Assembly: GCA_964016885.1 (NCBI GenBank)
Contig: OZ024744.1
Span: 71,982,001 to 72,046,000, forward strand
DNA length: 64,000 nt
DNA from: Eledone cirrhosa
Lineage: Eukaryota
Direction of reading: 5' to 3'
Under the pieces are notes generated by a model, which was not told where the DNA came from, searched no databases, and saw only the letters and a program-made list of their open reading frames with translations. A program made the position numbers and the translations under genes. Positions 7,561 through 50,785 of the stretch are shown here, piece after piece. Numbering within the stretch: the first letter of the stretch is position 1; the number at the start of each line of letters is the position of its first letter.

Positions 7561-8400
7561 TATAATATAACTGAACAAAAAAGAAAAACGAACACAGATA
7601 TATATATGTTCAAATCGTAATGGACCAGATTCGCTAAGGTGAAAAGAATACTAACTACAGACAATAGGGTTTGCTATACTCAATTTAAGAATAAATCAAG
7701 AAAAATAAATACAAACCAGTATTGTGGTAACTACTGATCACCCGGACAGTTTTGATAATACTGTTTCGCAATATTATTTGTGAAGAGGAATACCAAAATC
7801 TTAGCTCATCAGCAGGTGAAGAATTATTAGTATCCTGGTCACTTCTAAATATAATAAAAATCTGGATAGTGTGCGTATATGTAACGCACATGGTTCCAGA
7901 ACTTAGCGTGTCTCGCAGACTCACGCCACTAAAAATAGCAGCCGAGTTTACTCGACATTTGAATTAGCTCGATGAATTAACGAAGCCGAACATTCAAAGG
8001 GATGTATTGAGTTAGAAACTCAAAATAATCTCATTACAGAAAATTAGCTCTAAGAAAGAGGTTTTTCCGAGCCGTATAGTATAACTGAACAAAGAAATTT
8101 TATTGCGAAACAGTATTATCAAAACTGTCCGAGTGATCAGTAGCTACCACAATTCTGGTTTGTATTATTTTTCTTGATTTATTCTTAAATTGAGTATAGC
8201 AAACCCTATTGTCTGTAGTTAGTATTCTTTTCACCTTAGCGAATCTGGTCCATTACGATTTGAACACATATATGTATATGTCTGTGTTCGTTTTTCTTTT
8301 TTGTTCAGTTATATTATACGGCTCGGAAAAACCTCTTTCCTCGAGCTAATTTACTGTAATGAGACTATTTTGAGTTTCTAACTCAATACATGCCTTTGAT
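7561..8400 (-). mobile_element. Retrozyme-like element R1 (514-nt unit + partial repeat + inverted piece)
   Basis: TATAACTGAACAAA recurs at offset 514. 8101-8318 is the reverse complement of 7561-7773, and about 8300-8398 is the reverse complement of about 7995-8093. Flanked by (TA)n. Related remnant at about 21540-21660. Confidence 0.7.
7738..7819 (-). ncRNA. Type I hammerhead ribozyme (R1)
   Basis: Minus strand: TCACCTG-CTGATGA-GC...GC-GAAA-CAGT-loop-ACTG-TC-CGGGTGA. 7-bp stem I, 4-bp stem III. Confidence 0.85.
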
Positions 8401-8675
8401 ATATATATATATATATATATATATATATATATATATATATATATATATATATATATATATTTCGTTTCTGAATTTGTTTAGCAAGATTCTTTATCTGAAA
8501 TCGTGTGTTGAAACCGATATTGTTATACTTTGGGAGGGTCATGTTGCCAATAAGAAACACACGCACCAGTTGCTTTCACTTCAATTTAATTTAATATATA
8601 TTTATAAATTTACAAATTTATAAATTTCTGGTTGGTTGGTTGGTTCCACAACCAGATAGTTGTTTATATATATAT

Positions 8676-8720
8676 AGTCATAGTTCTTTCGTCACACACT
8701 CTGTGACCTCTTCAGTGACT
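8676..8720 (-). ncRNA. Minimal type I hammerhead ribozyme (PLE-B)
   Basis: Reverse complement of 8944-8988. Confidence 0.88.
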
Positions 8721-8943
8721 GGGGATTTCTTTCTTCGTTTCTGTGCCTTTCCTTTCTTCTATCCTACGCCATTTTGTTTGTGTGTGGGTTGCGTGCTCAG
8801 TTTGCGCATGCGCCACATCCGGGTGTCTGTGTGTGTTTGTGTTCATTTTTTTTTTTTTTTTTTTGCACGCAACCCACACACAACAAACAAAATGGCGTAG
8901 GATAGAAGAAAGGAAAGGCACAGAAACGAAGAAAGAAATCCCC

Positions 8944-8988
8944 AGTCACTGAAGAGGTCACAGAGTGTGTGACGAAAGAACTATGACT
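8944..8988 (+). ncRNA. Minimal type I hammerhead ribozyme (PLE-B)
   Basis: AGTCA-CTGAAGA-g-GTCACA-gagtg-TGTGAC-GAAA-gaac-TA-TGACT. Confidence 0.88.
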
Positions 8989-9189
8989 ATATATATATAA
9001 ACAACTATCTGGTTGTGGAACCAACCAACCAACCAGAAATTTATAAATTTGTAAATTTATAAATATATATTAAATTAAATTGAAGTGAAAGCAACTGGTG
9101 CGTGTGTTTCTTATTGGCAACATGACCCTCCCAAAGTATAACAATATATATATATATATATATATATTTGGTATTAAATTAACAATGAA

Positions 9190-9400
9190 ATAATGGTTTG
9201 TAAGGCTCAAGGCCAACAATTTGAGGGAAAGTCGATTAAATCGACCCCAGTGCATTACTGGTACTTTATTTCATCGACCCCGTCAGGATGAAAAGCGAAG
9301 TTAACCTCGGCGGGATTTGAACTCAGAACGTAAAGGGGCGTAACCCGATTCCATGAAGCATGGTGTCCAACGCTCTATCGATTCTGCCAATCCACTGCCT
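9190..9400 (-). mobile_element. Nin-type SINE copy
   Basis: Same core and B-box as 6540-6718. Confidence 0.8.
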
Positions 9401-9454
9401 TAATTAAAAATGAAAATAATAACAACAGAGTCGAGTTATTTTACCTATTCATAT

Positions 9455-9582
9455 CATTGTTTTACGATCGTTTCGGAGGGTTGATCATATTGACATATTG
9501 TCTGATCTATAGCAGTTATACAACTGTATAGTATCAGACCTCAGATATAGGTTCGATCAGACCGTCTTCTTCGGAAACAATG
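9455..9582 (-). ncRNA. Variant type I hammerhead (core CCGAAGA) with a long branched stem II
   Basis: Minus strand: CATTGTTT-CCGAAGA-(about 95-nt structured insert)-GAAA-CGATCG-TA-AAACAATG. Perfect 8-bp stem I. Confidence 0.65.
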
Positions 9583-47290: not shown

Positions 47291-47839
47291 GAAACCCTTT
47301 ATTTGGAATCGATACTCAGCTACTTCAGCGCCACAAAGTATTCTAGAAGGGCAGTGTGTAACAAAGTACTTATAATAAAAAGGAAAAAACCTTCTTTCGA
47401 GATGGGAGAGCGATAAGAACTCGAAATTAGTTATTTGATTTTGCGGTATATTTACTTTGATTCTTAAATATGATACGTATATTTACTGTCATTGTTGTTG
47501 GCGTGGGTACACTATGTATATATAGTACACACACATATACGCATATGCATATATATATATATATATATATATATAATACTAATAATAAACGTTTGCTCTA
47601 CATGGCTGAATACAAATAAATATAAGTTTATAAGTTTTTCGAATATTAATAATAATATTCGATTCGTTTGCAATTATGTTATGCAAACAAGCCTCTTTTT
47701 TAAAGCCATATTAGTAGAATGAGCCCCTCATTCTACAGTTTACATGCCAGCACAAGAGCAAAAATGAGAGGCTCATTCTACTGACATGGCTTTAAAAAGA
47801 GGGTTGTTTGCATAATTGGAAACGTATCGAATATCATTA

Positions 47840-48125
47840 CTTTGCCTTTCATCCTTACGGGGTCGATAAAATAAAGTACCAGTAATGCACTGGATAATTG
47901 CTGGCCTTGTGCCTAAAGTAGAAACAATTATTAATATTCGAATGGGCGGTGAGTTGGCAGTATCGGTAGAGGGTCGGACGCCATGCTTTGACGCATAGAA
48001 TTACGGCCCTTGCCATTCTGAGTTCAAATCCCGCCGAGGTTAACTTTGCCTTTCATCATTACGGGGTCGATAAAATAAAGTACCAGTAATGTACTGGGTA
48101 ATTGCTGGCCTTATATTGCTGGCCT
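47840..48125 (+). mobile_element. Two Nin-type SINE copies
   Basis: A partial copy and a full copy. Confidence 0.8.
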
Positions 48126-48951
48126 TATTGATATTCGAAAAACTTAGGTTACATTTATATATATATACACTCTCTAACCTACATAGAGCACTCTTTTTTC
48201 CTGGACCTTTCCGGCGGAATTACTTCATTTACACACACATATATATATAAATATATATATATATATATATACATATGTAGCAGGTGAGTTTTATTGTAGT
48301 ACAATAAAGCAATGCAGATATCGGATAAGAAGATAGATGCGCATAATAAAATACATGGAACTCTTTTAACCATCTGTTGTTCTTATATATTATATATATA
48401 CATATAAAATAACTAAATAAGATACTGGGGTAACATATATCGTTTAATCATAATACTTATTTCCACGGTTCTCCATGCAATCGAGATGTCCTTCATTCAT
48501 ATTGCTGTTGATTATGAGAACGGTCTCCTCAGATGAAGTATTCAGCAATGTAGAGCAAAAGTTTATTATTATTATTATATATATATATATATATATATAT
48601 ATATATATATATATATATATATATATATATATATATATATATATATATATATATATATTTATTCATATACGTATGTGTGTGTGTACTATATATACATAGT
48701 GTACCCATGCCAACAACAATGACAGTAGTATAGTATACATATTATTACCGAAGGTTTCAAGAAACTCGATGATTCTTGCAAGGAACATTAATAAAATACC
48801 TTTATAGTATATACTCTATACAATACATAGAGCACTTTTTTTCCTTTTTACGGAAATACTTAACACACACACACATACAGGCGCGTGCGCGCGCGCACAT
48901 ATACATATATATATATATATATATATATATATATATACATATATATATATA

Positions 48952-49145
48952 TAACGAAGGAAATGTGGTAAGGAACCAGATGGACCATAACGCACCAAAG
49001 TACTCAATACTTAGGGTAGTAGAGTGGGTAATAGGAACGACTAGGACCCCGACAGCTGAGCTCAAGCCGTTGCGACGGCTAATTCTGAAGTCCAGAATTA
49101 GCCGTCGAAACGGCTTGAGCTCAGCCGTCGGGGTCCTACTCGTTC
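48952..49145. mobile_element. Fold-back remnant, family D, with a near-perfect hairpin of about 53 bp
   Basis: Hairpin at 49034-49145 with loop AAGTC. The right arm reads GAAA-CGGC...GCCG-TC-GGGGTC (HHR 3' half). Confidence 0.65.
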
Positions 49146-49589
49146 ATATTGATGATTTCTAATGAATGAAACAGTTCTAGTCCTGTAGAATCTCATCTAT
49201 ATTAAAACTATATATATATATATATATATATATATAAGCGAATTGGTATTTGTTTCGGCTCTCTGCTCACTGAGTTCAAATTCCGCCGATGTCAACTTTG
49301 CTTTTCATCCATTCAAGATCGATAAATATAGTACCAATCATGTAGGTAGTGTGTATGTGTGTGTGTGTGTGTGGGGTGGGGGGTGGGGTTCTAATCTTCA
49401 TCTATATCTCCTTCTCACTTCAATTATCTCAATCTCTATCCTTCTTTGGAAGAAATATGCTGTATTTAGGCCTGGAGAAGAGATGGGCTCCACCAGCTTC
49501 GAAGAAAGAGGCCCTAGAAACGCCATATGCAAATAAGATTCCCTCAGAATTTACAGGACCATGCACACACACACATATATATATATATA

Positions 49590-49780
49590 TGCGGTGGATT
49601 GGCAGTATCGGTAGAGGGTCGGACGCCATGATTTGACGCATAGAGTTACGGCCCTTGCCATTCTTAGTTCAAATCCCGCCGTGGTTAACTTTGCCTTTCA
49701 TCCTTACGGGGTCGTTAAAATAAAGTACCAGTAACGTACTGGATATTTGCTGTCCTTGTGCCAATAGTAGAAACAATTAA
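49590..49780 (+). mobile_element. Nin-type SINE
   Basis: A and B boxes plus core. Confidence 0.82.
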
Positions 49781-49925
49781 TATATAGATGCATACATATA
49801 TACATACACACATGTATATATATATATATATATATATATATACACACACATATATATGAATATATATATTATATGTATATATATATACATATTTATATAT
49901 AAGTATATATATATGTATGTATGTA

Positions 49926-50785
49926 TAAATGGAAAAATTGAAATTTCATTTCTCACTCTTAGTACGGCTGATACTTAAATGTAAGTATGTACACGTAGAT
50001 ACATATATGTATACAGACTCTACAGTGGTATGTATATGCACACATACATGCACACACACGCACACACACACACACACACACACACACACACACACACACA
50101 CACACACACACACACACACATATATATATATATATATATATATATATGTACGTATGGGTTTACATTTATTATTATGCTCGGTTTGTTTGTAAACAAACAG
50201 CCCGAATTATTAGCCAACAAACAAACCGAGCATTATAATAAATGTTCGGTAAACCCATACGTACATATATATATATGTGTGTGTGTGCATGTATATATAT
50301 ATATACATACTACTGTACGTCTGTATACATATATATATGTACGTATACATACTTATATTTAAGTATCAGCCGTACTAAGAGTGAGAAATGAAATTTCAAT
50401 TTTTCCATTTATTGTTTACGGTACGCCCGGCTGACTAACTCACACAATATGCAAATTAGGCTGCTCAGCCGTTAATATGCATAAGGAAAGTATATACTTT
50501 CAAACGTTCAATCAACTGACAGGACGTATACGGTGCTGATGACAGCTAATAAGCTAGAAACTACTTCATCGTTCCTTTGTCAGTGTTGAACAAAAGGGCA
50601 ACGATGGTTGCGGAACTCTGTACGGCTTAATTCGGGCTGTTTTTTTACAAACAAACCGAGCATTATAATAAATGTTCGGTAAACCCATACGTACATATAT
50701 ATATATATATGTGCATGTATGTATGCATATACATACTACTGTACGTCTGTATACATATATGTATGTATGTGTACATACTTATATT
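49926..50785 (+). mobile_element. Retrozyme-like element R3 copy 2 (430-nt unit)
   Basis: Same outer ends as copy 1 but a different inversion point. ACAAACCGAG at 50221 and 50651. Confidence 0.8.

What the first reader, a model, noticed from the sequence alone, without database searches (positions are those of the whole stretch)
7561..50785. Several apparently unrelated retrozyme-like mini-elements copy the PLE integration pattern
Seen: R1 (514-nt unit), R2 (318 nt) and R3 (430-434 nt, two copies) are non-coding and share no evident sequence. Each has one type I HHR per unit and is built as inverted piece + full unit + partial direct repeat next to (TA)n, like PLE-A but without the ORF. Known: non-LTR retrozymes in other animals are short HHR-bearing repeats that yield circular RNAs, and PLEs have been proposed as their helpers. 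Inference: this is a multi-family system of self-cleaving, probably circular RNAs retroposed by a (TA)n-biased PLE RT/endonuclease. Copies longer than one unit fit reverse transcription around a circle. I do not know of a description for this lineage.
Basis: partly seen in the sequence, partly recalled or inferred. Interest (0 to 1): 0.78.

Follow-up and report, generated by a model that had tools for sequence, protein, structure and literature searches.

The report
Ribozyme mini-retroelements, one with rearranged hammerhead
This probable octopus genome holds at least five families of short non-coding repeats, each with a predicted self-cutting hammerhead ribozyme, that were likely copied into TA microsatellites by Penelope-type retrotransposons; in one family the ribozyme's parts lie in a scrambled order that the papers we could search report only from environmental sequence.

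Summary
Confirmed, and larger than reported. R1, R2 and R3 are unrelated non-coding hammerhead units, dispersed genome-wide (56, 250 and 11,281 exact ribozyme matches). Copies wrap round the unit, start anywhere, and end at one of two fixed sites beside (TA)n. In inverted copies the two arms use opposite ends (35 of 37 classifiable). That is the Penelope-like (PLE) 'tail' signature. None of 90 ribozyme-anchored loci runs into a PLE ORF, so these are non-LTR retrozymes, a known kind, most likely PLE-mobilised. Cleavage, circles and the helper are untested; no RNA run was listed.

Two families were missed. R5 has a U3-A8 type I hammerhead. R4 (5497-6096) carries a non-circularly permuted type-SGC hammerhead: over 10,000 exact matches, covarying stems, a kink-turn-like loop. 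That type was described only from environmental sequence. By eye, published Naiad PLE consensuses, said to lack canonical hammerheads, hold SGC or CSG forms too. Against a current Naiad helper: the Naiad matches found here look decayed. The scan noted a similar TA-targeted repeat, without a ribozyme, in another genome (e1-7810660).

The parts
7561..8096 (-). R1 direct arm: one 514-nt unit plus about 20 nt, ending at the short 3' end
   Evidence: 95% to family consensus
8095..8404 (+). R1 inverted arm, crosses the unit junction, ends at the long (tailed) end against (TA)30 at 8400-8459
7745..7812 (-). R1 type I hammerhead core, long stem II, predicted cut after GUC at 7745
   Evidence: core intact in 22 of 30 copies
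11166..11392 (-). R2 inverted arm with its own hammerhead (11269-11236), a different sequence variant from the direct arm
11404..11759 (+). R2 direct arm: 318-nt unit plus 38 nt, long end, then (TA)9; hammerhead 11555-11589
   Evidence: core intact in 26 of 30 copies
43920..44234 (-). R3a inverted arm, long end against (TA)n
44236..44848 (+). R3a direct arm, 1.4 units of 434 nt, short end; hammerhead 44591-44621 with palindromic stem III and U.U at the base of stem II
   Evidence: core intact in 27 of 30 copies; stem I position 1.3/2.3 varies as G.U, U.G, U-A, C-G
49925..50791 (+). R3b: inverted arm 49925-50209 and direct arm 50217-50791; hammerhead at 50536 decayed
5497..6096 (+). R4 (not in the finding): 526-nt wrap-around unit between two TA tracts
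5940..6010 (+). R4 type-SGC (non-circularly permuted) hammerhead: predicted cut after 5954, GAAA at 5971, CUGACGA 5998-6004, kink-turn-like loop in the extended stem III
33129..33753 (-). R5 (not in the finding): 594-nt wrap-around unit between TA tracts; type I hammerhead with U3-A8 core at 33464, GAAA at 33379, predicted cut after 33344
316..5201 (+). PLE-A direct arm: 4137-nt unit plus about 750 nt, ORF 1039-4671 (RT and C-terminal GIY-YIG), short end; the inverted arm (1-317) continues left of the window and ends at the long end
8461..9147 (.). PLE-B: 5'-truncated, inverted terminus of a coding PLE related to PLE-A (further copies 38846-39065, 41935-42450, 50969-51800); internal control for what a coding PLE end looks like
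21363..21656 (+). old R1-like fragment (77-82% to consensus)

Best explanation
R1-R3, with the overlooked R4 and R5, are non-coding hammerhead repeat families with PLE-type insertion marks, likely small self-cleaving RNA circles (non-LTR retrozymes) that a TA-cutting Penelope-like RT/endonuclease would copy into the genome in trans. Shown: dispersed copies, wrap-around beyond one unit, variable 5' ends, two fixed 3' ends at (TA)n, inverted arms that use the opposite end, conserved and covarying hammerheads. Inferred: a copy longer than one unit (two ribozymes) is transcribed, cut to unit length and ligated to a circle; a PLE protein nicks both strands of a (TA)n tract and starts reverse transcription at two internal sites of the RNA, one per strand; running round the circle gives copies of 1-4 units; joining the two cDNAs 5' to 5' gives the inversion with a tail on one side only. 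In R4 the cutting would be done by a type-SGC hammerhead, whose kink-turn-like loop is predicted to bend stem III back so that the scrambled strands can meet.
For: All 89 distinct full-length-selected loci have direct arms of 1.02-4.19 units, every one wrapping into the same unit (at least one unit was imposed by the query). In 90 ribozyme-anchored loci, not selected for length and including some duplicates, 50 wrap; none of 41 non-inverted ones shares upstream sequence with another insertion; none runs into a PLE ORF end. 84 of 89 direct arms end at one of two sites; 76 of 89 ends touch a TA run against 9% background. Of 54 inverted copies, 37 could be classed at both ends: short/long 25, long/short 10, long/long 2, short/short 0, Fisher p 1.9e-7. 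PLE-A and PLE-B show the same pattern; the tail and the two RT start sites are PLE hallmarks (PMC8557442; PMC11167929). No blastp hit at E<=1 of R1-R5 to 86 PLE proteins, while the PLE-B control hits both ORF ends. Circular folds beat 40 shuffles, z -5.3, -5.6, -7.9. One of about 108 inversion joints joins a PLE-B end to an R3 arm of similar age (L085). R4 motif: 5279 + 5189 exact matches, reversed-pattern controls 0; 94.7% of cells paired, 71 double changes, 0 of 500 shuffles as high, slid controls 26-53%.
Against: No RNA evidence of any kind: cleavage, circles and expression are untested. DNA cannot tell a circle from an uncleaved tandem transcript, and in vitro a PLE used uncleaved RNA and did not need its hammerhead (PMC11167929). 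Repeats within one arm differ by 5-6%, like separate loci, and share only 24-53% of recurrent variants (13-18% between loci), weaker than one template read twice would give. R1-R3 show no sequence likeness to PLE-A/B ends and are older than PLE-A, so the helper is unidentified. The 86 proteins cover mainly PLE-A relatives. The cross-family fusions are few and could be nested insertions (L085 and L051 are long/long). R4's stem II is a single pair (62 of 70), and the search patterns fixed part of stems I and III. Eight of nine Xenopus retrozymes did not cleave in vitro (bioRxiv 10.64898/2026.07.22.740005).
Confidence: 0.7

Rival explanations
1. Same non-autonomous PLE passengers, but the template is a linear, uncleaved transcript of a tandem copy; the hammerhead is carried along from the PLE terminal repeat or acts at another step, and no circle is needed.
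For: Tandem copies of 2-5 units exist; the Anolis PLE used unprocessed RNA in vitro (PMC11167929); within-arm repeats are not clearly identical by descent; PLE-A itself makes arms longer than one unit.
Against: Five unrelated families keep an intact, covarying ribozyme once per unit, in three forms; units fold stably as circles; comparable repeats yield circles in coral, mussel and axolotl (PMC7229834).
Confidence: 0.2
2. The units are the 3' terminal repeats of coding PLEs not yet found, with several tandem hammerhead repeats; the copies are ordinary 5'-truncated PLE insertions, like PLE-B in this window.
For: PLE-B gives the same inverted, TA-flanked picture from a coding element; only 30 of 11,281 R3 and 30 of 250 R2 ribozyme matches were read with 1.5-kb flanks.
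Against: No shared upstream sequence and no ORF link in 90 anchored loci, including 30 of the 56 R1 matches, nor in 60 R4-type loci (three PLE-A pieces nearby were not shown to be linked); PLE-B ends carry both ORF termini, R1-R5 carry none; arms up to 4.2 units never leave the unit.
Confidence: 0.07
3. The repeats and inversions arose after insertion, by DNA duplication or slippage at TA tracts.
For: TA-rich regions are unstable; one tandem locus is duplicated as DNA (L064/L070).
Against: Hundreds to thousands of dispersed copies share two exact 3' ends and alternate them between arms; arms of one insertion can belong to different sequence variants (window R2).
Confidence: 0.03

Closest known systems
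Non-LTR retrozymes of animals (Cervera and de la Pena 2020, PMC7229834; Li, Clavereau and Pollet 2026, bioRxiv 10.64898/2026.07.22.740005)
   Same: Non-coding units of a few hundred nt, low GC (36-37%), one type I hammerhead per unit, monomers to multimers, PLEs in the same genome proposed as helpers; R3's U.U at the base of stem II matches the axolotl HHR_Amex2 description.
   Different: Here mostly dispersed 0.5-2-unit copies with the PLE tail, inversion and TA-target marks, which the sections read of those papers do not report ('inverted' 0 hits in PMC7229834). No cephalopod in PMC7229834; the preprint's four invertebrates are three insects and a coral. No sequence likeness to the PLE ends at hand, unlike Xenopus. 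Expression and circles not shown here.
Endonuclease-bearing Penelope-like elements: tail and internal RT initiation (Craig 2021, PMC8557442; Frangieh 2024, PMC11167929); non-autonomous Chlamys such as MRC1
   Same: Partial tandems, 5' inversion, optional tail at one end, microsatellite targeting; two RT start sites.
   Different: No ORF; tails of about 26-29 (R2), 50 (R4), 56 (R3) and 81-86 nt (R1) against 30-40 nt described; the short/long alternation between arms is quantified here.
Type-SGC non-circularly permuted hammerheads, HRIMA-1 and variants (Eckert 2023, PMC10085705)
   Same: Block order cleavage site, GAAA, CUGANGA; all core bases kept; H17 is A or C only; covariation in stems I and III.
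   Different: Described from metatranscriptomes of unknown organisms, with none found in genomes of known organisms; here more than 10,000 genomic matches inside retroposed units of an animal. Stem II is one pair; stem III is extended through a kink-turn-like loop (the word 'kink' is absent from that paper's main text); their stem I-II interaction helix was not found.
Naiad PLEs (Craig 2021, PMC8557442)
   Same: TA targeting in cephalopods; the Naiad_Ovul and Naiad_Obim 3' UTRs, read by eye in the supplement, have the SGC order with the same 13-nt kink-turn-like strand as R4.
   Different: The paper scores these as 'HHR_half_core' or nothing and says Naiads lack canonical hammerheads. In G000 the Naiad-like matches look decayed and no SGC motif was found behind 19 of them.

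Membership tests
non-LTR retrozyme | short non-coding unit without LTR, PBS/PPT or ORF | tested here: met
   units 318-594 nt, longest stop-free frame 47-96 aa, no PLE protein hit; PBS/PPT not searched
non-LTR retrozyme | one type I hammerhead per unit (R1-R3, R5) | tested here: met
   Rfam below gathering score
non-LTR retrozyme | type I topology in R4 | tested here: not met
   R4 has the SGC order: it works like a retrozyme with another ribozyme form
non-LTR retrozyme | occurs as tandem or more-than-unit copies | tested here: met
   arms to 4.2 units, runs of up to 5 ribozymes at unit spacing
non-LTR retrozyme | self-cleavage in vitro | not testable with these tools
   needs transcription assay
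non-LTR retrozyme | expressed as unit-length linear and circular RNA | not testable with these tools
   no RNA run listed
PLE-mobilised element | two fixed 3' ends (tail present at one end), 5' inversion, partial tandem | tested here: met
PLE-mobilised element | microsatellite target shared with a coding PLE of the genome | tested here: met
   76 of 89 ends at TA; PLE-A and PLE-B likewise
PLE-mobilised element | terminal sequence homologous to a named autonomous PLE | tested here: not met
   no likeness to PLE-A/B or to 19 decayed Naiad 3' regions; other PLE families not surveyed
autonomous PLE terminus | sequence continues into RT/EN ORF | tested here: not met
type-SGC hammerhead | block order S, G, C with all core bases | tested here: met
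   70 distinct motifs, H17 A or C, N7 U or C
type-SGC hammerhead | covariation in stems I and III | tested here: met
   stem I 100% paired, 3 of 6 pairs with double changes; stem III 96.7%, 1 pair; part of both stems was fixed by the search patterns
type-SGC hammerhead | stem II helix and stem I-II interaction helix | tested here: inconclusive
   one pair only (62 of 70, A-U, G.U, U-A); a possible long-range GGAY/RUCC helix is suggested, not settled
type-SGC hammerhead | cleavage at the predicted site | not testable with these tools
   needs assay
kink-turn (box C/D type; consensus recalled, not from a call) | 3-nt bulge, tandem G.A and A.G, flanking helices | tested here: met
   G.A 66 of 70, A.G 65 of 70, next pair U.U 44 of 70; outer helix 65-69 of 70 paired, 5 of 6 pairs with double changes, none imposed by the search; 3D fold untested

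The most novel reading that the evidence does not exclude
Non-circularly permuted hammerheads are active animal genomic ribozymes. They are the overlooked ribozymes of Naiad Penelope-like elements (SGC in cephalopods and cnidarians, CSG in nematodes), and a kink-turn-bent SGC form drives a retrozyme family of more than 10,000 copies that outlived its Naiad parent and now rides other PLEs.
Probability: 0.6. Interest if true: 0.87.

Novelty: new variant of a known kind. Interest (0 to 1): 0.76.

Why it matters
It gives genomic evidence, from insertion marks, for the proposed but unproven mobilisation of animal retrozymes by Penelope-like elements, and short natural templates (318-630 nt) with mapped RT start sites for testing how PLEs make their tails and inversions. 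The R4 family gives the non-circularly permuted hammerhead a host genome and a job. If the Naiad reading holds, it overturns the statement that Naiads lack hammerheads, which has been used to argue that the ribozymes merely parasitise PLEs, and it means standard descriptors and Rfam miss a large class of animal ribozymes. A natural kink-turn inside a hammerhead would offer protein control of cleavage.

Tried and rejected
Rfam: window-wide scan gave only microsatellite-driven miRNA noise in the 150 rows shown of 232; local scans found no ribozyme at gathering score for R1-R5. Pfam gave 0 families for PLE-A and the GIY-YIG fragment at 33830. tRNA: none in six loci of R1-R5. An HDV-like descriptor printed nothing for R4/R5. 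My first reading of R4 and R5 as 'hammerhead-free, one fixed end' was wrong: both have hammerheads, and R4-type copies show two ends once sampled by motif; R5 showed one end and no inversion in 20 of 20 length-selected loci and was not resampled. First-look candidate numbers are not copy numbers and were replaced by exact pattern counts where available. Naiad as current helper of R4: the Naiad_Ovul-type motif has 0 exact matches; a Naiad RT motif pattern gave 1 match, in a broken copy; its 115 protein matches are short or hold stops, none long and intact; no SGC motif behind 19 of them. A more distant Naiad family could have been missed. L033 first looked chimeric but is two adjacent insertions.
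Full report
Setting. The window lies on contig C28 of a 3.0-Gb genome. The best named relative of the PLE-A protein is an Octopus vulgaris protein at 68% identity, so the host is probably an octopod (inference). PLE-A (ORF 1039-4671) has RT and C-terminal GIY-YIG motifs by inspection (Pfam gave no family). All 91 scored genome matches to its RT region are about 100% identical and free of stops.

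Observation. A hammerhead descriptor with pairing checks gives 6 window hits against 0.2 in shuffles and recovers R1, R2 (twice) and R3a; the R3b ribozyme is decayed. The three consensuses are unrelated and non-coding. Rfam does not call them.

Families. Exact ribozyme patterns match 56 (R1), 250 (R2) and 11,281 (R3) times, with 0 for the reversed controls; these are lower bounds. In 30 best full-length loci per family (one R3 duplicate dropped, n=89) copies are 92-95% alike in pairs and 3-4% from consensus. The 12 core bases are intact in 22, 26 and 27 of 30; R3 stem I varies as G.U, U.G, U-A and C-G; circular folds of the ribozyme strand beat 40 dinucleotide shuffles at z -5.3 to -7.9.

Insertion anatomy. 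Every direct arm wraps into the same unit (1.02-4.19 units). 5' ends are scattered, but 84 of 89 3' ends fall at one of two sites, 26-86 nt apart by family, and 76 of 89 touch a TA run (background 9%). Of 54 inverted copies, 17 had one end unclassed; of the other 37, 35 pair a short end with a long end and none pairs short with short (p 1.9e-7). PLE-A and PLE-B do the same. Craig 2021 describes this optional tail at one end of PLE insertions (PMC8557442, passages and sections 11, 15, 20 read), and Frangieh 2024 maps it to two internal RT start sites (PMC11167929, parts 1-2 of 4 read). The simplest reading (inference) is two priming events, one on each strand of a nicked TA tract, each at a different start site.

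Not the end of a coding PLE. PLE-B shows what such an end looks like: it carries both ORF termini (blastp E 6e-20 and 5e-8), whereas R1-R5 give no hit at E<=1 to the same 86 proteins. To avoid length selection I took the first 30 ribozyme matches per family: 50 of 90 wrap; of 41 non-inverted ones none shares upstream sequence with another insertion; the two protein hits are nested PLE-B ends. The sample is 30 of 56 for R1 but small for R3, and the protein set is mostly PLE-A relatives.

Helper. Not identified. One of about 108 inversion joints links a PLE-B end (92% to the window copy at 41935) to an R3 arm (L085), and L039, L051 and L311 fuse R2 to R1 or R3 without a TA tract. These suggest shared machinery but can be nested insertions. 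Ages favour an older PLE over present PLE-A.

Circle or tandem transcript. Arms run through the cut site, so the template was either a ligated circle or uncleaved RNA. Repeats within an arm share recurrent variants more often than separate loci (24-53% against 13-18%) but differ by 5-6%: inconclusive. No RNA run was listed.

About 24 distinct type I hammerhead clusters turn up in 0.63 Mb of fetched DNA, several with two TA-abutting ends. R5 (33129-33753, minus; the 40 scored copies 99-100% alike) has a type I ribozyme with the U3-A8 core swap reported for Schistosoma PLEs (PMC4209133, part 1 of 4 read). R4 (5497-6096) seemed to lack one until a 69% relative showed CUGANGA conserved with GAAA and the cleavage strand upstream. 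A descriptor for that order hit five divergent versions and 0 in shuffles. Two mutually exclusive patterns give 5279 and 5189 exact matches, controls 0. In 70 distinct motifs H17 is only A or C, stems I and III pair in 65-70 of 70, and stem III continues through a 3-nt bulge and tandem G.A/A.G pairs into a 6-bp helix rich in double changes that no pattern imposed. On 24 hand-picked diverse motifs 94.7% of cells pair, with 71 double changes and 0 of 500 shuffles as high; slid structures pair 26-53% (relatedness inflates the shuffle test). The loop fits the box C/D kink-turn consensus (recalled). Stem II is one pair. R4-type units are about 430-680 nt, TA-targeted, with two ends near +67 and +115; no PLE ORF was shown linked in 60 loci.

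Comparison with print. This block order is type SGC of Eckert 2023 (PMC10085705, parts 2-6 of 8 read; supplement not seen), validated in vitro, found in metatranscriptomes, with no SGC example in genomes of known organisms. Craig 2021 says Naiads lack canonical hammerheads and lists eight 'half cores', one in Naiad_Ovul. Reading that supplement by eye (parts 1, 9, 24, 25 whole; other passages from searches), Naiad_Ovul and Naiad_Obim have the full SGC order with the same 13-nt kink-turn-like strand. Naiad-3_Chem, three Acropora Naiads, two motifs in part 12, one in part 19 and Naiad_Esco also fit SGC, and nematode Naiads (Hpol and one before Naiad_Hcon) fit CSG. This was not computed or controlled, and not all 54 families were seen. 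In G000 the Naiad-like matches look decayed and show no such motif, so a Naiad origin of R4 is an inference from other species.

Known kind. Non-LTR retrozymes and the PLE-helper idea are published (PMC7229834, parts 2-4 of 6 read; bioRxiv 10.64898/2026.07.22.740005, parts 1-3 of 5 read, supplements closed). Searches for a cephalopod description, for non-autonomous PLEs, and for permuted hammerheads in PLEs or Naiads returned none in their listings; subscription journals are not covered. The scan's own notes hold one similar TA-targeted repeat with a tRNA in another genome and nothing for this genome or this ribozyme order.

Verdict. R1-R3 as flagged are real and are new members of a known kind, with unusually clear PLE insertion marks (about 0.5 alone). 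The same system includes a high-copy family with a rearranged hammerhead and a likely link to Naiads, which makes it a new variant. Interest 0.76.

Noticed in passing
supplement of PMC8557442: Published Naiad consensus 3' UTRs appear to hold complete non-circularly permuted hammerheads: SGC in cephalopod and cnidarian families, CSG in nematode families. Read by eye only.
   Followed up: partly
window 5311-5264 (-), 37044-37073 (+), 52155-52252, 49030-49205, 36054, 55107: Further hammerhead or hammerhead-like stubs of other families; about 24 clusters in 0.63 Mb of loci, several with two TA-abutting ends. Whether coding or not is unknown.
   Followed up: partly
window 37566-37838, 42756-42835, 47650-47839, 53764-53926, 54210-54451: Short palindromic inserts beside TA tracts, probably 5'-truncated inverted PLE-type insertions of other families.
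   Followed up: no
L039, L051, L085, L311: Fusions of different families without a TA tract between them (R2-R1, PLE-B-R3, R2-R3); template switching or nested insertion.
   Followed up: partly
window 11236-11269 versus 11555-11589: The two arms of the window R2 copy carry different stem I variants, one also seen at another locus, so they may come from two RNA molecules.
   Followed up: partly
window 1018-4671; 91 matches in G000: PLE-A is a very young family with many intact, near-identical copies, often in inverted or tandem pairs; it has a long Asn-rich insert before the RT.
   Followed up: partly
window 33830-34597 and 57449-58165: Fragments of a second GIY-YIG PLE type next to TA tracts.
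   Followed up: no
window 24465-32087 and 58711-63998: Three related LINE copies with AP endonuclease and RT, next to (TATC)n tracts.
   Followed up: no
window 6535-6720, 9189-9399, 12891-12966, 16454-16728, 39465-39661, 44912-45392, 47839-48114, 49591-49782: An abundant short interspersed repeat family, not examined.
   Followed up: no
window 13654-14265 (-): 203-aa frame that looks like a DNA transposase fragment by eye; no Pfam hit.
   Followed up: no
L314 and L315-L344: Old, broken Naiad-like PLE copies in this genome; no intact one found.
   Followed up: partly
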